Numbered from the stretch's first letter, positions 12,122 through 19,905 are shown. The stretch: DNA of 64,000 nucleotides from an uncultured Gammaproteobacteria bacterium (GCA_964590345.1 CAZPVP010000001.1:7937-71936), one strand, 5' to 3'. Notes: generated by a model not told the origin, from the sequence alone. A program made the numbers and translations.

Positions 12122-13009
12122 TTAAACCGGTTGAAACTCATCCCAGCCATAAATTTGCGGATATTCTTTCCATGGCCCCTCACAAATCTGAAAATATTTA
12201 CAATTTTTACATTCCTCTCTCTTAATTTTTCCTTTATTTTTACGGTAATATTCATAATCAGACATAACCTGTTCTGCCACTACTTTTGTTTTAGGAATAT
12301 TATTTTCAGCAATATAATCTTCATATCCCTGCATCAAGCAATATGGTATAGCTTCAGTCATGACTATTTTACCAGCTTTAATACCAATATCCAAACCCTC
12401 TTTTACATAAGGCATAACATCTGTCTTTTTAGGAATCAGCCAGTCACGATTTTTCCAGGCCGTGCCAATAATATGTACATACGCAAATTGAAACTGATTA
12501 ACATCCAATTGCACTAAAAGTTTAGCCAAATCAGACAAATCTTTATAATTTAAAGAATTAATAACGGTATTAGTTAAAATATATTGATTAAGTTTCCTTA
12601 AATTTTTAATGGCGGAAACGACTTGTTGCCAAGCACCTGGGCTATTTGTTAACTTGTCATGAATTTCTGGCCTTGAACTATGTAAAGCAGGTGAAAACTC
12701 ATTGGCACCGGCTTGTATTATTTTTTGGCAAAAATCTAAATAAGCCAACATTCGACCATTAGTTTGCAGTTGAATAATTTCAAAACCAAGCTTTTTGGCA
12801 TAAGCAACAGCTTCCATAATATTGGCATGCAAAGTTGGTTCACCGCCAGTAAAAACGACGCCTTTAATGCCTTCTTTACTTGCTTCAGCTAAAGCCTGTT
12901 TAATTTCTGTAATCTTTTTATTTTTTAACTTATATCTTTTATCACCCTGCACACAGAATTCACACTTATTATTGCATTTAAAACCAATTTTTAAATCAAC
13001 GCGGTCCAT
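12122..13009 (-). CDS. radical SAM enzyme, short SPASM/twitch-like (paralog 1)
   Basis: CNNKCEFC; GGEPTL; C-terminal CKNCKYFQICEGPW (CxxCx5C) plus upstream IPYC. Confidence 0.7.
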   Translation of the reverse strand: MDRVDLKIGFKCNNKCEFCVQGDKRYKLKNKKITEIKQALAEASKEGIKGVVFTGGEPTLHANIMEAVAYAKKLGFEIIQLQTNGRMLAYLDFCQKIIQAGANEFSPALHSSRPEIHDKLTNSPGAWQQVVSAIKNLRKLNQYILTNTVINSLNYKDLSDLAKLLVQLDVNQFQFAYVHIIGTAWKNRDWLIPKKTDVMPYVKEGLDIGIKAGKIVMTEAIPYCLMQGYEDYIAENNIPKTKVVAEQVMSDYEYYRKNKGKIKREECKNCKYFQICEGPWKEYPQIYGWDEFQPV

Positions 13010-14246
13010 AAAATAAATTCTTGAAAATATTAAAATAAATAATATCGATGTTTAAATTTTTTCTAGCAAATAAACGTGCCCTTCTTTCATAACATTGCCG
13101 ATAATCTTCATCAAATAACAATTTATCAATTTCTTTTTTAAGTTTTCTAATTTCATTATTTTTTATAGCTATTAAAGGAGAATTAAAATTATTTAATATC
13201 TGAAATAGTGCTGGCGTATGTGAAGTTATAAGCGCTTTTCCCATTGCCAAGGCATCCGAAATAGATAAATATCCGTTAAATCGATTTCCTATTGGAATAA
13301 AAACTATTTTAGAAACAGCGATTAATTTAAGATAAAAATCAAACTTCACCATAGGGATTATTTTGATATTTAATTTTCTTTTTAATACCGATAAATCTTC
13401 ATAATATTTATTATTAGAATTTATAATTAAAATTTTCTTATTTTTAAAATATTTTATTTCACTTTTTAAAATCGAGAAATCTCTCCCATTCAATCCAAGA
13501 ATAACTAAATCAAAAATAGAATTATCAGTTTTTATAATGGGAAATTGTCTCAAATTAACTGGCATATAATCAATGCTCTTGATTTTTGTATTGTTAAAAT
13601 TAATAACATCTTTATAAACGTTCTTTAAATTATATGGCTGGCAAGTATAGATCAATAATTCTTTATTTTGCTCCAAAATATCGTTTTCCCTCAGGATGCT
13701 TTTATCCTTTGAATATTTTTCAACTTCGTTTATTATCGCATGATATAAGGCAAAATCAAGCAGAATTAATTTGGATTTGATATCACTTTTTAATAATTTT
13801 ATCAAAGGGTAGGTTGCTCCAACAGAAATAATATATTCATAATGGCTATAGTTAAAATTCTTACTATCAGCGGTGATATTAAAATTAACATTGCCGATCT
13901 TTTTTATAAAATTAAATAAAGTTTCATCGTGAGTGCATTCTAATAAATCACACTGAATATTTAATTTTTTTAAAAAAACACACAATGCTTCAATTAGCGA
14001 TCCTTTTATACCAACTAGAATCAATATTTTAATATTATTTTTTTTAAATTTCTTCAGTTTTTTATATAGTAAACCAACAAAAACATCCTGCCATGGATTG
14101 CTTTCAATTTTTAAATTTTCTAATACTTTAATCAATTTAATTACTTCTTCAATATTAAAATACCCGGGATGTTTTTTTATTAAAACATCTAAATTATCTG
14201 CATTTTCAAAAATTTTATTATCAAGCATAAATAAAATTATTATCAA
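12996..14246 (-). CDS. glycosyltransferase family 1 (GT4-like) protein
   Basis: 416 aa; C-terminal GNRFNGYLSISDALAMGKALITSHTPALFQ matches GT1 donor-binding region pattern (EGFGLxxxEAMAxGxPVIAT), with E to N substitution. Confidence 0.45.
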   Translation of the reverse strand: MIIILFMLDNKIFENADNLDVLIKKHPGYFNIEEVIKLIKVLENLKIESNPWQDVFVGLLYKKLKKFKKNNIKILILVGIKGSLIEALCVFLKKLNIQCDLLECTHDETLFNFIKKIGNVNFNITADSKNFNYSHYEYIISVGATYPLIKLLKSDIKSKLILLDFALYHAIINEVEKYSKDKSILRENDILEQNKELLIYTCQPYNLKNVYKDVINFNNTKIKSIDYMPVNLRQFPIIKTDNSIFDLVILGLNGRDFSILKSEIKYFKNKKILIINSNNKYYEDLSVLKRKLNIKIIPMVKFDFYLKLIAVSKIVFIPIGNRFNGYLSISDALAMGKALITSHTPALFQILNNFNSPLIAIKNNEIRKLKKEIDKLLFDEDYRQCYERRARLFARKNLNIDIIYFNIFKNLFYGPR

Positions 14247-17828: not shown

Positions 17829-18974
17829 TTATTTAATAGGCTTTAAAATATTAAAACCTTTTTTTTTAATTAAATCGATATTCGCGCCAGGGCATTCTTT
17901 TTGCTTGCTACATTTTTCACAATGCAATGATTTCACTTTATATAAATTATTAATATAAAAATCAGCAAATGTATCTAACTCAAATTTTTGATTAATAATA
18001 AAATCAATTGCAAATTCTTTTTTTATAATTTCAAGACAAAAAGGCGATCTTGTTAATTTATTAATTTCATTAATAAATCTACTTTTATTTTTATCATATA
18101 TTTTTTTTAAACTAATCAATTTCTGACAGAAATCATTTAACCAGCAATATTGGCAACGAATTTTATCATAACAATTTAACATTTTGCCAATTTTTAAATA
18201 ATTTTCAAAGCCTTTTCTTCTTCCACTCAGCTCATCTTTAATTTTAATGGGATCCTGAATTAAAAATTCATAACCTTCCAAATACTTAGCAGGAAAGCGA
18301 TTAGTCCAAATATGAAACCTCTTGTCGTTTTTAGCCAATTCCCATACTTTTTGCAAATAAGGCATTGCTTCATCTAAATTATACAATAATTTATTTCTGT
18401 TTTCCCAAGCCCGGCCAAAAGGCACTATTTGCAATAAATCATACTCAAAAATAGCAAAATTATTAGCATAAAACATAATTATATCATAAATTTTTTTATA
18501 ATTAAGCTTATTAATAACAACGTCAATATTAACAATTACATTAGGATACATTTTAACATTTTTTAATCCATTAATTGCTTGTTCAAAGGAGCCTTTAACA
18601 CCAGTAAATTGCTCATGCAATTCAGCGTTATAAGCGTGCAAAGAAAATGTTATTTCAGTTAAACCATTTTTGATTGCTTGCCGAGTAAATTTTTTATAAG
18701 TGAACATGCGGCCATTAGTAATAGTTTGAATTTCAGAAAAACCAATAAATTTAGCAAATTTAATAATATCCAAAAAATCAGGGTGAATTGAAGCTTCACC
18801 CCCGCTAATAACCAATCTTTTTGCTCCCGTTCCCTTTGCTTTCTTTATCTGATTTTTAACTTCTTCAATTGGTTTAAAAATTCCGTTTTTCTGATTGTCA
18901 GCATCAAGACAAAAAACACACTGATTATTGCATTTATTATTTATAGCCAGCCAATATTTATCAATTTTAGCCAT
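17829..18974 (-). CDS. radical SAM enzyme, twitch-like, longer (paralog 6)
   Basis: CNNQCVFC; GGEASI; C-terminal CEKCSKQKECPG plus extra Cys pairs (CQYCWLNDFC). Confidence 0.7.
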   Translation of the reverse strand: MAKIDKYWLAINNKCNNQCVFCLDADNQKNGIFKPIEEVKNQIKKAKGTGAKRLVISGGEASIHPDFLDIIKFAKFIGFSEIQTITNGRMFTYKKFTRQAIKNGLTEITFSLHAYNAELHEQFTGVKGSFEQAINGLKNVKMYPNVIVNIDVVINKLNYKKIYDIIMFYANNFAIFEYDLLQIVPFGRAWENRNKLLYNLDEAMPYLQKVWELAKNDKRFHIWTNRFPAKYLEGYEFLIQDPIKIKDELSGRRKGFENYLKIGKMLNCYDKIRCQYCWLNDFCQKLISLKKIYDKNKSRFINEINKLTRSPFCLEIIKKEFAIDFIINQKFELDTFADFYINNLYKVKSLHCEKCSKQKECPGANIDLIKKKGFNILKPIK

Positions 18975-19905
18975 AGTTAAAATTATTTAAAATTTTAGCC
19001 TCATTTTTAATCTTTCTAATATATCTAACATAATTTATATTAAAACCGACACATCCTTTATTCTTATATTGGCAATCTTCACATAATTCATCCCAAATAA
19101 TAATTTCTTTATCCAGTTCCGCTTCTTTCACAAATTTATCTGATGATTTTTTTGCAATACAATAAGGGAACTTTTCAAGATAACATCCTCTTTTTTTATC
19201 AAGTAAATATTTTATTATATTTATCAAATAAGGTTGGATCCTACAATATTCACCTGCTAATTTTTGATAATTTTTTTCATCACCATTATAAACTAAGTTG
19301 GATAATTTTATAGCAATCTTTTTTTTCGTATCTAATTTCTCAATCAATTTAATTATCAGCATTAAATATTTAAAATTTAATTTTGTTACAACAATATTAA
19401 TGACTATTTCACCTTTAAAATATTTAATTAATAAGTTCAGTCCTCTCAAAGTTTGGTGAAAACTTCCTGTTCTTTGCGTTATTAAATCATGGAGTATTTT
19501 ATTGTGACCATGTAAAGTAGTACGCACACTTTGTACGCTATATTTATTTAATTGTTTAACTAAATACTCATCCAAAAGCGTAGAGTTTGTAGCAATACTA
19601 GACTTGAAACCCAATTTATTAGCATAAGCCAAAGCTTTAATTAAATCTTGCTTATATAAAAATGGCTCACCACCATAAAAATCTAAACATTTTATTTTAT
19701 TTCTCTTAGCTTTATCAATTTCTTTTTTTACATTAATCAAATTAAAAATTTTTGTTTTATCATATAAATTAAAACAAAAAACACAGTCATTATTGCAATT
19801 ATAGTTTAAATCAATTATATATTTCATTTTAATTTTTATTTTTATTCTTTTTAAATAATAACCAGGAAAATCTATTTTTAATATTATAATATTTACACAT
19901 TTCAA
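18967..19905 (-). CDS. radical SAM enzyme, twitch-like (paralog 7); true start probably internal Met at about 19827 (MKYIIDLNYNCNNDCVFC)
   Basis: CNNDCVFC; GGEPFL; CEDCQYKNKGCVG. Longest ORF adds 26 atypical residues that overlap the upstream small ORF. Confidence 0.65.
   Translation of the reverse strand: MKCVNIIILKIDFPGYYLKRIKIKIKMKYIIDLNYNCNNDCVFCFNLYDKTKIFNLINVKKEIDKAKRNKIKCLDFYGGEPFLYKQDLIKALAYANKLGFKSSIATNSTLLDEYLVKQLNKYSVQSVRTTLHGHNKILHDLITQRTGSFHQTLRGLNLLIKYFKGEIVINIVVTKLNFKYLMLIIKLIEKLDTKKKIAIKLSNLVYNGDEKNYQKLAGEYCRIQPYLINIIKYLLDKKRGCYLEKFPYCIAKKSSDKFVKEAELDKEIIIWDELCEDCQYKNKGCVGFNINYVRYIRKIKNEAKILNNFNYG

What the first reader, a model, noticed from the sequence alone, without database searches (positions are those of the whole stretch)
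12122..19905. Seven tandem paralogous short radical-SAM enzymes with one auxiliary-cluster Cys set each
All seven are 285-381 aa with N-terminal CxxxCxFC and GGE(P/A/F)(T/F/S)(L/I). All end in CxxCx5-6C(x)G preceded about 40 aa upstream by a conserved (I/V)P(x)C, i.e. 4 Cys able to bind a single auxiliary [4Fe-4S] (twitch/truncated-SPASM architecture). Sequence divergence between copies is substantial, so they are old paralogs, not a recent amplification. This suggests each has a distinct site or substrate specificity, like an assembly line of single-site modifiers. A GT1-like gene is inserted between paralog 1 and 2.
Basis: seen in the sequence. Interest (0 to 1): 0.8.

Follow-up and report, generated by a model that had tools for sequence, protein, structure and literature searches.

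The report
Expanded His-Xaa-Ser radical SAM operon
The seven tandem radical SAM genes are real, ancient HxsC-type paralogs, part of a ten-radical-SAM operon built around a His-Xaa-Ser repeat protein in a tiny-genome (Patescibacteria-like) bacterium; this is a much enlarged, undescribed variant of a system recently shown to block phage DNA entry in E. coli.

Summary
Seven minus-strand ORFs (285-381 aa) carry CxxxCxFC and GGE. Six have the (I/V/F)PxC...CxxCx5-6CxG four-Cys set. C6 instead has two invariant four-Cys sets.

All seven hit HxsC/HxsC4 best, but below cutoff. They lie in one tightly packed operon with true HxsB, HxsD, an HxsD-like protein and an HxsA-like protein ending HCS(HGS)6. That operon also has a PapB-like rSAM, an eighth HxsC-like domain fused to HD, a GT-like gene, a PEP-swivel protein and an A24 peptidase.

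Canonical HxsC shares the same four Cys, so this set is the HxsC hallmark. The window copies lack its ~105-aa N-terminal domain.

Each paralog except C7 and C8 falls in a bootstrap-supported orthogroup (40-77% identity) in other Patescibacteria and partly in Omnitrophota. The copies are only 26-38% identical to each other. Array size ranges from 1 to 8.

HxS repeat number (5-18) does not track enzyme number, so "one enzyme per site" fails.

C1+C6 and C5+C6 orthologs also occur outside Hxs loci, which keeps a non-peptide substrate possible.

Verdict: a new variant of a known kind. The chemistry is unknown.

The parts
24757..25236 (-). HxsD (159 aa), first gene of the operon
   Evidence: NCBIfam TIGR03976 scores 64.5 bits against a cutoff of 50. 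It is 77% identical to the L027 ortholog.
24457..24657 (-). HxsD-like small protein (66 aa)
   Evidence: NCBIfam NF038315 HxsD_rel scores 76 bits against a cutoff of 41. Orthologs sit at the same position in L027 and L017.
24078..24431 (-). Four-helix-bundle protein (23S rRNA IVP family) between HxsD-like and HxsB
   Evidence: Pfam PF05635 scores 98.9 bits and TIGR02436 95.6 bits. The same family sits at the same position in L027.
22552..24054 (-). HxsB, radical SAM/SPASM maturase (500 aa)
   Evidence: TIGR03978 scores 499.8 bits against a cutoff of 370, over the full profile length. Pfam SPASM scores 26.4 bits. It is 36.7% identical to annotated hxsB of an Aeromonas plasmid.
22120..22524 (-). 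HxsA-like candidate substrate (134 aa). It has a Lys-rich leader with FLNDEEGKITKKDI, a hydrophobic segment, a 5-Cys spacer, and a C-terminal HCS(HGS)6...HHSS.
   Evidence: It scores 42.3 bits on HxsA4 (cutoff 55) and 39.2 on HxsA3 (cutoff 65), both below cutoff. It is the only HxS-run ORF in the window. The leader motif is shared with HxsA-like proteins of L003, L009-L011, L017, L018 and L027.
21211..22101 (-). Membrane-anchored Cys-rich protein (296 aa), function unknown
   Evidence: It has an N-terminal TM segment and no family hit. Its ortholog sits at the same position in L027 (27%, E 1e-24).
20089..21171 (-). PapB-like radical SAM (360 aa) with partial SPASM-type Cys
   Evidence: The best NCBIfam hit is PapB NF047865 at 127.5 bits against a cutoff of 340, so it is not a member. 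Pfam Radical_SAM scores 50.6 bits.
18967..19905 (-). C7, HxsC-like rSAM. The likely true start is ATG 19827.
   Evidence: HxsC scores 78.3 bits, below cutoff. It carries CNNDCVFC, GGEPFL and FPYC...CEDCx6CVG. The only ortholog found is in Falkowbacteria L006, where it is split (52-64%).
17829..18974 (-). C6, HxsC-like rSAM with two C-terminal 4-Cys sets (381 aa)
   Evidence: HxsC scores 100.4 bits. Eight C-terminal Cys are invariant in 51 orthologs. The orthogroup has bootstrap 100 and includes Omnitrophota. The AF2 model has pLDDT 94.9, and its C-terminal domain has no PDB match.
16892..17827 (-). C5, HxsC-like rSAM (311 aa)
   Evidence: HxsC scores 92.7 bits. The orthogroup has bootstrap 100 (L006 68%, L027 74%, Omnitrophota 48%). 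A 46% ortholog sits in the NifHDK-like cluster L032.
16018..16899 (-). C4, HxsC-like rSAM (293 aa)
   Evidence: HxsC4 scores 86.2 bits and HxsC 58.8. The orthogroup has bootstrap 100 within Patescibacteria and 75 with Omnitrophota included.
15104..16021 (-). C3, HxsC-like rSAM (305 aa)
   Evidence: HxsC4 scores 128.5 bits over the full profile length. The orthogroup has bootstrap 99.
14243..15100 (-). C2, HxsC-like rSAM (285 aa)
   Evidence: HxsC scores 87.3 bits. The orthogroup has bootstrap 91 (L027, L007).
12996..14246 (-). GT-B-like protein (416 aa) inserted between C2 and C1
   Evidence: Pfam Glycos_transf_1 scores 20.8 bits against a cutoff of 26.4 (E 3e-4), which is weak. A 24%-identical protein sits before C1 in L001. 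It is absent from L027.
12122..13009 (-). C1, the universally conserved HxsC-like rSAM (295 aa); the core enzyme
   Evidence: HxsC4 scores 153 bits and HxsC 90. Homologs are 59-77% identical across Patescibacteria, Elusimicrobia and Woesearchaeota. The orthogroup holds 20 sequences with bootstrap 96. C1 is the only HxsC-like gene beside HxsB/HxsD/A24 in L003 and L013. The AF2 model has pLDDT 93.9.
9446..12115 (-). C8 fusion (889 aa). It consists of an eighth HxsC-like rSAM domain without auxiliary Cys, an HD domain, and a ~260-aa C-terminal domain of unknown fold.
   Evidence: HxsC4 scores 80 bits and HxsC 73.5 over residues 16-179; HD PF01966 scores 42.7 bits. No aligned auxiliary Cys are present. 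The C-terminal domain is homologous to the C-terminal half of the C1 fusions in L006 and L007. It has no PDB or Pfam hit.
8557..9441 (-). Protein with a PEP-utilising-enzyme mobile (phosphohistidine swivel) domain (294 aa)
   Evidence: Pfam PF00391 scores 27.9 bits against a cutoff of 23.1. Orthologs lie in the arrays of L005, L007, L028 and L029.
7059..8552 (-). A24-family (prepilin-peptidase-like) membrane protein (497 aa), last gene of the operon
   Evidence: Pfam Peptidase_A24 scores 27.9 bits against a cutoff of 26.5. Orthologs 50-54% identical follow C1 directly or one to two genes downstream in L001, L006, L007, L026, L027 and L028. An Arc_PepC-type homolog sits next to HxsD in L003.

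Best explanation
Identity. The seven ORFs, plus an eighth fused copy, are short-form HxsC-family radical SAM enzymes. They are the enlarged enzymatic arm of a non-canonical His-Xaa-Ser (Hxs) protein-maturation operon on the chromosome of a Patescibacteria-type bacterium.

Operon order. The transcription order is HxsD, HxsD-like, four-helix-bundle protein, HxsB, HxsA-like substrate, Cys-rich membrane protein, PapB-like rSAM, C7, C6, C5, C4, C3, C2, GT-like, C1, C8-HD fusion, PEP-swivel protein, A24 peptidase.

Shown by computation:
- the family relationship;
- the shared four-Cys set with canonical HxsC;
- the tight gene packing;
- the orthogroup structure;
- the copy-number variation.

Inferred mechanism:
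- Each enzyme binds a [4Fe-4S] cluster at CxxxCxFC, cleaves SAM, and uses the 5'-deoxyadenosyl radical to abstract a hydrogen from the HxsA-like protein.
- The C-terminal four-Cys cluster (two clusters in C6, none in C8) serves electron transfer or substrate ligation.
- C1 is the core HxsC equivalent, working with HxsB and the HxsD-type partner(s).
- C2-C7 are accessory tailoring enzymes. Each installs a chemically or positionally different modification type rather than serving one repeat each.
- GT-like, HD and PEP-swivel proteins add non-radical tailoring.
- The A24 peptidase removes the conserved leader near FLxxEEG|K, and the product ends up on or in the envelope.

The biological role (phage barrier as in E. 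coli HXS, surface fibre, or metal binding) is not determined.
For: Family:
- All seven hit HxsC (TIGR03977) or HxsC4 (NF038332) best.
- Aeromonas HxsC aligns end to end with C1 at 23% identity (E 8e-9). In the eight-sequence alignment its P331, C358, C361, C367 and G369 are invariant, and the IPxC Cys aligns with six of the seven paralogs.
- 92 of 103 HxsC-like domains from 20 loci keep all four auxiliary Cys.

Context:
- HxsB scores 499.8 bits (cutoff 370). HxsD scores 64.5 (cutoff 50) and HxsD-like 76 (cutoff 41).
- The window has a single HxS-repeat ORF.
- Intergenic gaps run from -14 to +6 nt from C7 to the A24 gene, and are at most 39 nt from HxsD-like to the PapB-like gene.

Minimal systems:
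- In Woesearchaeota L003 and in L013, the C1 ortholog is the only HxsC-like gene next to A24 and HxsD; L003 also carries HxsB and an HxS-repeat protein.

Recurrence:
- The same HxsD-HxsD-like-4HB-HxsB-HxsA-TM-C6..C1-A24 layout occurs in L027.
- Intermixed arrays with a bona fide HxsA4 (86.5 bits, cutoff 55) occur in Elusimicrobium minutum and relatives.

Distinct roles:
- Orthogroups C1, C3, C4, C5 and C6 have bootstrap 96-100 and C2 has 91. Paralogs are only 26-38% identical to each other.

Precedent:
- In E. coli HXS, HxsB, HxsC and HxsD are all genetically required for HxsA processing. HxsC binds HxsD, and a +8 Da modification maps to an HxS motif (PMC13128918).
Against: - No paralog reaches the HxsC or HxsC4 curated cutoffs.
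- All lack the ~105-aa N-terminal domain of canonical HxsC, and none has a recognisable peptide-recognition domain.
- C1+C6 ortholog pairs (48-54% identity) stand alone with no Hxs gene within 10 kb in two large genomes, beside glycan genes (L031, L033).
- C5+C6 orthologs sit in a NifH/NifDK-like plus B12-rSAM suite (L032).
- The nearest solved structures include small-molecule enzymes (BlsE, viperin-like, GDGT-MAS, MoaA) as well as the peptide maturases SkfB and SuiB.
- Some arrays hold TP_methylase or SDR genes.
- No experiment exists for this variant. The +8 Da chemistry of the canonical system is itself unresolved.
Confidence: 0.55

Rival explanations
1. The C1-C8 array is a separate multi-step radical SAM pathway acting on a non-peptide substrate, such as a surface glycan or sugar nucleotide, a lipid, or a tetrapyrrole-like cofactor. 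It is merely co-located or co-regulated with the Hxs module.
For: - C1+C6 pairs occur without any Hxs gene. In L033 they lie beside Epimerase_2, PMT and Polysacc_synt; in L031 beside DegT, hexapeptide transferase and Wzy_C.
- C5+C6 orthologs lie inside a NifH/NifDK-like plus B12-rSAM suite (L032). This resembles the group VI nitrogenase-like clusters proposed to make a cofactor (bioRxiv 10.1101/765248; still uncharacterised per PMC13474568).
- The top PDB hit by sequence and by fold is BlsE, a sugar-nucleoside decarboxylase.
- The window operon contains GT-like, HD and PEP-swivel genes. Other arrays contain TP_methylase or SDR genes.
- No paralog has a peptide-recognition domain.
Against: - In the window, C7 through the A24 gene have overlapping or near-abutting boundaries on one strand (gaps -14 to +6 nt). 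Gaps upstream to HxsD are at most 183 nt. This fits one transcription unit that includes the Hxs genes.
- In minimal systems, C1 is the only HxsC-like enzyme beside HxsB/HxsD/A24 and an HxS protein.
- In Elusimicrobia, HxsB-like and HxsC-like genes are interleaved.
- The paralogs share the diagnostic Cys set with HxsC, which is genetically required for HxsA maturation.
- The neighbours of the stand-alone pairs are not conserved between L031 and L033.
Confidence: 0.25
2. This is the first reader's model: an assembly line in which each paralog modifies one specific site. Here that would mean one of the seven or eight HxS repeats.
For: In this window the numbers coincide. There are seven contiguous HxS repeats plus one more (HCS, HGS x6, HHS/HSS), against seven paralogs plus one fused.
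Against: - The closest relative, L027, has the same 7-repeat run but 6 paralogs.
- Four Elusimicrobia loci with one shared gene architecture have 11, 12, 17 and 18 repeats with 6-7 HxsC-like domains.
- Omnitrophota L017 has 5 repeats with 6 domains.
- Woesearchaeota L003 has 5 repeats, and the Aeromonas system 7, each with a single HxsC-type enzyme.
- Six of the repeats are identical (HGS), which leaves little for site discrimination.
Confidence: 0.07
3. The copies are redundant, decaying or recently amplified duplicates with no individual function.
For: Array size varies from 1 to 8 among genomes. One ortholog (C7 in L006) is split by a frameshift.
Against: - All eight keep CxxxCxxC, and seven keep the GGE motif (NGE in C8).
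- Each of C1-C6 has orthologs at 40-77% identity with bootstrap 91-100.
- Paralog identity is only 26-38%, and there are no DNA repeats longer than 83 nt.
Confidence: 0.02

Closest known systems
Canonical HXS antiphage system (HxsD-HxsB-HxsC-HxsA) of Pseudomonadota (Li et al., Nat Commun 2026, PMC13128918; families defined by Haft and Basu 2011)
   Same: - HxsB and HxsD pass the curated models.
- There is a substrate with tandem His-Xaa-Ser repeats.
- The HxsC-type rSAM has the identical IPxC...CxxCx5CxG Cys set.
- All components sit in one operon.
   Different: - One HxsC is replaced by eight short HxsC-like domains that lack the ~105-aa N-terminal domain.
- Extra components are present: a PapB-like rSAM, an HxsD-like protein, and GT-like, HD, PEP-swivel and A24-peptidase genes.
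- The gene order is D-B-A-C(n), not D-B-C-A.
- The HxsA-like protein has a conserved FLxxEEGKI leader and no PG_binding_1 domain (Aeromonas HxsA has one).
- The host is a Patescibacteria-type genome, whereas 99.7% of canonical systems are in Pseudomonadota.
- The locus sits among housekeeping genes (CysS, CorA, DnaJ/DnaK), not in an obvious defence island.
NCBIfam variant Hxs families: HxsA4 (NF038313), HxsA3 (NF038309), HxsC4 (NF038332), HxsD_rel (NF038315)
   Same: - The window's HxsD-like protein is a member of HxsD_rel.
- The E. minutum substrate in the related locus L011 is a member of HxsA4.
- C1 and C3 hit HxsC4 best.
   Different: - No window or E. minutum rSAM reaches the HxsC4 cutoff of 500; the maximum is 153.
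- The window's HxsA-like protein is below both the HxsA4 and HxsA3 cutoffs.
- No publication on these variant families was found.
Twitch-domain radical SAM enzymes, e.g. SkfB (PDB 6efn)
   Same: - The partial TIM-barrel rSAM core is followed by a short C-terminal Cys-bearing extension, too short for a SPASM domain.
- SkfB is among the top fold matches to C1 (TM 0.67, 266 columns) and is the top match for C6.
   Different: - Identity is 15-22%.
- The Cys spacing (PxC...26-51 aa...CxxCx5C) is specific to the HxsC family.
- C6 has a second four-Cys set in a domain with no PDB match.
- Cluster binding is untested.
Radical SAM suites around group VI nitrogenase-like (NflHDK) genes in Elusimicrobia, Gracilibacteria and Myxococcales (Meheust et al. 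2020)
   Same: - These are variable-copy tandem arrays of many rSAM genes of unknown product.
- L032 carries 46%-identical orthologs of C5 and C6 next to NifH-like and two Oxidored_nitro genes.
   Different: - The window has no nitrogenase-like genes and no B12-binding rSAMs.
- Those suites were not reported with HxS peptides.
- Whether L032's NifH is group VI was not tested.

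Membership tests
Radical SAM superfamily (PF04055) | CxxxCxxC cluster motif and a Pfam score above the gathering threshold | tested here: met
   All seven, plus C8, have CxxxCxFC. Scores are 54-93 bits against 29.5 (48.3 for C8).
Radical SAM superfamily (PF04055) | GGE SAM-binding motif | tested here: met
   GGE is invariant in the seven; C8 has NGE. It is present in 98-102 of 103 related domains.
HxsC (TIGR03977, equivalog) | Score at or above the curated cutoff of 267.9 bits | tested here: not met
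   Scores are 58.8-100.4 bits.
HxsC (TIGR03977, equivalog) | N-terminal ~105-aa domain preceding the rSAM core, as in Aeromonas HxsC | tested here: not met
   The window paralogs start 9-14 residues before CxxxCxxC (C7: 10 from ATG 19827).
HxsC (TIGR03977, equivalog) | C-terminal IPxC...CxxCx5CxG Cys set | tested here: met
   The CxxCx5CxG Cys and the Pro of IPxC are invariant in alignment A3, which includes canonical HxsC. The IPxC Cys is missing only in C6.
HxsC (TIGR03977, equivalog) | Encoded with HxsB, HxsD and an HxS-repeat protein | tested here: met
   HxsB scores 499.8 (cutoff 370) and HxsD 64.5 (cutoff 50). The HxS-repeat ORF lies in the same operon. The gene order differs from D-B-C-A.
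HxsC4 (NF038332, exception model) | Score at or above 500 bits | tested here: not met
   Scores are 58-153 bits.
SPASM domain rSAM (PF13186 / seven-Cys motif) | A Pfam SPASM hit, meaning two auxiliary clusters in the canonical CX2CX5CX3C arrangement | tested here: not met
   None of the seven has a SPASM hit. Six have only four C-terminal motif Cys. C6 has eight, but in a domain with no fold match to SPASM structures.
Twitch-type rSAM | A single auxiliary Fe-S cluster bound by a short C-terminal extension | tested here: inconclusive
   The Cys count and extension length fit in six of seven. SkfB is among the top fold hits. Cluster binding needs spectroscopy.
Canonical HXS defence system (PMC13128918) | HxsA with a signal peptide, a peptidoglycan-binding domain and HxS repeats | tested here: not met
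   HxS repeats are present. The window's HxsA-like protein has no PG_binding_1 domain, whereas Aeromonas HxsA has one (E 4e-10). The leader is of a different type.
Canonical HXS defence system (PMC13128918) | Protection against phage by blocking DNA entry | not testable with these tools
   PADLOC 2023 has no Hxs model. Only generic rSAM-core similarity to pVip was found.
Prokaryotic viperin (NF038283) | Score at or above 180 bits | tested here: not met
   Scores are 42-67 bits. Viperins lack the auxiliary Cys set.
Flp / class III prepilin-like leader (PF04964), recalled from memory as resembling FLxDExG| | A Pfam Flp_Fap match in the HxsA-like leader | tested here: not met
   No Flp_Fap hit at E up to 10 for five leaders. 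The A24 link therefore rests on gene adjacency only.

The most novel reading that the evidence does not exclude
The HxsC-like orthogroups C1-C7 may be a portable multi-enzyme radical toolkit that turns a His/Ser-rich ribosomal protein into a heavily cross-linked product, such as a fibre or a metal-binding or cofactor-like molecule. The uncharacterised radical SAM suites around group VI nitrogenase-like genes, which share C5/C6 orthologs, would then belong to the same peptide-directed pathway rather than to tetrapyrrole chemistry. In that reading, Patescibacteria spend about 2% of a ~1 Mb genome on a new class of multiply radical-modified envelope protein.
Probability: 0.15. Interest if true: 0.85.

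Novelty: new variant of a known kind. Interest (0 to 1): 0.62.

Why it matters
- The four-gene HXS system only recently gained a function: an rSAM-matured periplasmic effector that blocks phage DNA entry. Its chemistry (+8 Da on an HxS motif) is unsolved.
- The window shows that, outside Pseudomonadota, the HxsC arm has diversified into up to eight ancient, individually conserved enzymes in one operon. Ten radical SAM proteins act around a single repeat protein, in organisms with minimal genomes.
- This offers a natural series, from one enzyme to eight, for dissecting what HxsC-type enzymes do.
- It points to a dedicated A24-type leader peptidase.
- It links the family to stand-alone C1+C6 pairs and to the still-uncharacterised group VI nitrogenase-like rSAM suites.
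- If the products are surface structures of episymbiotic Patescibacteria, they could bear on host attachment or phage resistance.

Tried and rejected
- Exact look-up of C1 in the contig index found nothing.
- The single metagenome scan, with C5 as query, returned only one 1.8-kb contig. Copy-number data therefore come from the genome scan and eleven contig look-ups.
- The first tree script timed out. The second had NaN distances from an over-high p-distance cap. Only one search is used.
- Model coordinates are not exposed, so Cys-Cys distances could not be measured.
- Promoter and terminator scans are uninformative in this AT-rich DNA: 167 found against 139 expected.
- PADLOC gave only generic rSAM-core hits to pVip. 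Viperin membership is rejected on score.
- The Flp-type leader idea, recalled from memory, got no Pfam support.
- The 889-aa protein's C-terminal domain has no Pfam or PDB sequence match.
- HxsD-like shows no similarity to the N-terminal domain of canonical HxsC, so it is not an obvious detached copy of it.
- The (GSH)n collagen-like reading is only sub-threshold. It does not apply to the Woesearchaeota or proteobacterial repeats.
- Plus-strand ORFs inside the region (e.g. 12095-12517, 17193-17483) are low-complexity antisense ORFs and were disregarded.
- No literature was found on HxsC4, HxsA4 or HxsA3.

Full report
**1. Observation**

The region 12122-19905 holds seven co-directional minus-strand ORFs of 295, 285, 305, 293, 311, 381 and 312 aa. 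I call them C1 to C7, from low to high coordinates. A 416-aa ORF lies between C1 and C2.

- All seven pass Pfam Radical_SAM, at 54-93 bits against a cutoff of 29.5.
- The alignment shows invariant CxxxCxFC and GGE. All seven also have C-terminal CxxCx5C(x)G, with x6 in C7.
- The upstream (I/V/F)PxC Cys is present in six of the seven, 26-51 residues before CxxC.
- C6 has FPAK at that position. It carries an extra CX5CX2CX5C plus a PFC, giving eight C-terminal Cys. All eight are invariant in an alignment of 51 orthologs.
- Pairwise identity among the copies is 26-38%. The DNA shares only short motif-level similarity.

C6 has two Cys sets, and the GT-like assignment is sub-threshold (Glycos_transf_1 20.8 bits against 26.4).

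**2.

Every paralog's best NCBIfam hit is HxsC (TIGR03977) or HxsC4 (NF038332). All are below cutoff: 59-100 bits against 268, and 58-153 against 500.

Upstream on the same strand lie, in order:

- HxsD (64.5 bits, cutoff 50).
- An HxsD-like protein (76 bits, cutoff 41).
- A four-helix-bundle protein.
- A full-length HxsB (499.8 bits, cutoff 370).
- A 134-aa ORF ending GSHCSHGSHGSHGSHGSHGSHGSHGHHSSGVGLC. This is HCS, then HGS six times, then HHS/HSS. It is the only His-Xaa-Ser repeat ORF in the window.
- A Cys-rich membrane protein.
- A PapB-like rSAM.

Downstream of C1 lie:

- An 889-aa fusion. Its first ~285 residues are an eighth HxsC-like rSAM domain without auxiliary Cys. An HD domain and a ~260-aa domain of unknown fold follow.
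- A protein with a PEP-utilising swivel domain.
- An A24-family peptidase-like membrane protein.

Gene boundaries from C7 to the A24 gene overlap or are at most 6 nt apart. The flanks are housekeeping genes: CysS, CorA, DnaJ, DnaK, Mur ligase and a PBP. This is a chromosomal operon with ten radical SAM proteins.

**3. Relation to canonical HxsC**

I retrieved an annotated hxsD-hxsB-hxsC-hxsA locus from an Aeromonas salmonicida plasmid.

- Its HxsC aligns with C1 from the CxxxCxxC motif to the last Cys, at 23% identity and E 8e-9.
- In the eight-way alignment, the Pro of IPxC, the CxxCx5C Cys and the following Gly are invariant. The IPxC Cys aligns with six of the seven paralogs.
- Canonical HxsC has an extra ~105-aa N-terminal domain that all window copies lack.
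- Across 103 HxsC-like domains from 20 loci, 92 keep all four Cys. The exceptions are the whole C6 orthogroup, C8 and truncated ORFs.

**4. Structure**

- AF2 gave confident models for C1 (pLDDT 93.9) and C6 (94.9).
- The closest solved folds to C1 are BlsE, viperin-like enzymes, GDGT-MAS, SkfB and SuiB, at TM about 0.62-0.70.
- For C6, only the rSAM core (about 230 columns) matches anything. The two-cluster C-terminal domain has no PDB counterpart.

**5. Comparative genomics**

C1 homologs are 59-77% identical across Patescibacteria (Buchanan-, Uhr-, Pace- and Parcubacteria), Elusimicrobia and Woesearchaeota. Context came from 18 genome loci and eleven contig look-ups. It shows the following.

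- (a) Minimal systems. In Woesearchaeota L003, C1 is the only HxsC-like gene next to HxsB, HxsD, an A24 peptidase and an HxS-repeat protein. In L013 it sits next to A24 and HxsD.
- (b) The closest relative, L027, has HxsD, HxsD-like, 4HB, HxsB, HxsA (7 repeats), TM protein, C6, C5, C4, C3, C2, C1 and A24. It lacks C7, PapB-like, GT, C8 and the PEP-swivel protein.
- (c) Other Patescibacteria carry one to seven or more HxsC-like domains at the same chromosomal position next to CysS.
- (d) Elusimicrobia, including Elusimicrobium minutum, have arrays in which three HxsB-like, two PapB-like and six or seven HxsC-like genes are interleaved. Their substrate passes the HxsA4 model (86.5 bits, cutoff 55).
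- (e) Omnitrophota and Woesearchaeota L015 also have arrays, some with two or three rSAM domains fused.

A neighbour-joining tree of 100 domains with 100 bootstraps gives these orthogroups:

| Orthogroup | Membership | Bootstrap |
|---|---|---|
| C1 | 20 sequences, all phyla | 96 |
| C3 | 5 sequences | 99 |
| C4 | 3 sequences; 9 with Omnitrophota | 100; 75 |
| C5 | 6 sequences, including Omnitrophota | 100 |
| C6 | 7 sequences, including Omnitrophota | 100 |
| C2 | 3 sequences | 91 |

C7 has only a frameshifted ortholog in L006. C8 has no robust partner.

The paralogs are thus old and individually maintained.

**6. Test of the 'one enzyme per site' idea**

HxsC-like domain counts and longest HxS runs are as follows:

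| Locus | HxsC-like domains | Longest HxS run |
|---|---|---|
| L003 | 1 | 5 |
| Aeromonas | 1 | 7 |
| L017 | 6 | 5 |
| L027 | 6 | 7 |
| Window | 8 | 7 |
| L009 | 6 | 11 |
| L018 | 6 | 12 |
| L011 | 7 | 17 |
| L010 | 7 | 18 |

Four Elusimicrobia loci with the same gene architecture differ from 11 to 18 repeats. L027 and the window share the repeat run but differ in enzyme number. The numerical match in the window is therefore coincidental. Distinct reaction types are more likely than distinct repeats.

**7. Substrate features**

- All non-proteobacterial HxsA-like proteins share a leader: K-rich, then F-(L/V/I)-x-x-E-(E/K)-G-(K/T)-I-x-x-x-(D/S)-(I/M), followed by a hydrophobic stretch.
- With the co-located A24 paralog, this suggests dedicated leader cleavage at the invariant Gly.
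- A remembered resemblance to Flp prepilin leaders got no Pfam support, so this step is inference.
- Tails differ by lineage. Aeromonas has PG_binding_1. Woesearchaeota L003 has a Peptidase_S74 intramolecular-chaperone domain directly after the repeats (E 8.7e-18). Patescibacteria and Elusimicrobia have a bare (GSH)n with a C-terminal Cys.

**8. Evidence that cuts the other way**

The C6 orthogroup extends to large genomes.

- In L031 and L033, a 54%-identical C1 ortholog is followed directly by a 48-50% C6 ortholog. No Hxs gene lies within 10 kb, and glycan genes are nearby.
- In L032, C6 and C5 orthologs (46%) sit among NifH-like, two Oxidored_nitro and B12-binding rSAM genes.
[quoted passage not shown] These are still uncharacterised (PMC13474568).
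- Enhygromyxa salina also has a C6-like enzyme among other rSAMs.

The array enzymes are therefore not exclusive to Hxs loci, and a non-peptide substrate cannot be excluded.

**9. Mechanism and comparison with the known**

In E. coli HXS (PMC13128918):

- HxsB, HxsC and HxsD are each required for HxsA processing.
- HxsC binds HxsD.
- A +8 Da modification maps to an SHRSS motif.
- The matured periplasmic HxsA blocks phage DNA entry.
- More than 99.8% of systems have four genes, and 99.6% have the order D-B-C-A.

I consider it most likely (about 0.55) that the window encodes an expanded version. C1 would be the core HxsC equivalent. C2-C7 would be accessory radical tailoring enzymes acting on the HxsA-like protein. 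Non-radical tailoring and A24-mediated leader removal would follow.

The family identity and operon membership are well supported (about 0.9). The substrate assignment and every chemical step are inferred.

The main rival, a separate small-molecule or glycan pathway, gets about 0.25.

**10. Novelty**

The canonical system and the variant NCBIfam models (HxsA2-4, HxsC4, HxsD_rel) exist. I found no description of multi-paralog HxsC arrays, of the short HxsC form, of the two-cluster C6 type, or of the A24 association. I rate this a new variant of a known kind, with moderately high interest.

Noticed in passing
window 19829-20086 (-) and 19827: An 85-aa ORF starts right after the PapB-like stop codon and ends 1 nt before an in-frame ATG of C7 at 19827. 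C7 therefore probably starts there (286 aa) rather than at TTG 19905. The 85-aa ORF has no Pfam hit and no homolog in the fetched loci.
   Followed up: partly
L031:9076-11641 and L033:9103-11677: In two large genomes (contigs of 5.98 and 2.37 Mb), a C1 ortholog (54%) and a C6 ortholog (48-50%) form a stand-alone overlapping gene pair. No HxsB, HxsD or HxS protein lies within 10 kb. The neighbours are polysaccharide genes (Epimerase_2, PMT, Polysacc_synt; DegT, Wzy_C).
   Followed up: partly
L032:1-21641: C6 and C5 orthologs (46%) sit inside a cluster with a NifH-like gene (Fer4_NifH 271 bits), two Oxidored_nitro genes and several B12-binding rSAMs. This resembles the uncharacterised group VI nitrogenase-like suites of Meheust et al. 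2020.
   Followed up: partly
L003:8586-9185 (-): The Woesearchaeota HxS-repeat protein carries a Peptidase_S74 'chaperone of endosialidase' domain (E 8.7e-18) immediately after the repeats. This hints that the HxS region may form a trimeric fibre. The (GSH)n tails of the window and L027 proteins give sub-threshold Collagen hits.
   Followed up: partly
window 24078-24431 (-); L027:1492-1839: A four-helix-bundle protein of the '23S rRNA intervening sequence protein' family sits between the HxsD-like gene and HxsB, both in the window and in the related locus L027. It may therefore be a system component rather than an insertion.
   Followed up: no
window 9446-12115 (-), residues ~587-840; L006:10001-11815; L007:2888-4690: The unknown ~260-aa C-terminal domain of the C8-HD fusion is homologous (25-30%) to the C-terminal half of proteins in which C1 itself is fused (600-604 aa) in Falkowbacteria and Parcubacteria. 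It has no Pfam or PDB sequence match.
   Followed up: partly
L012:18123-20174, L019:7524-9551, L008:17008-18933, L012:1713-4664: Natural fusions of two or three rSAM domains occur in one polypeptide (C6::C2-like in Omnitrophota, a double HxsC-like in Saccharibacteria, and a 983-aa triple). This suggests the paralogs work as physical complexes.
   Followed up: no
window 25307-26206 (-): A 299-aa secreted, Cys-containing protein lies just upstream of HxsD. It has a 31%-identical counterpart at the same position in L027. It has no family hit and may belong to the system.
   Followed up: no
L011:12281-13168 and equivalents in L005, L009, L010, L018: Elusimicrobia carry an additional HxsC-like clade directly after an HxsB-like gene. 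It is the closest to canonical HxsC (166.9 bits against a cutoff of 267.9). The window has no member of this clade.
   Followed up: partly
window 1-64000: Of the 55 ORFs of at least 120 aa, 50 are on the minus strand. The other five are two apparent plus-strand genes (the CorA gene at 2903-3829 and an ORF at 62581-63525) and three that overlap minus-strand genes. GC skew is negative in every 2-kb bin, and GC drops to 22-28% across the operon against 30-40% elsewhere.
   Followed up: no
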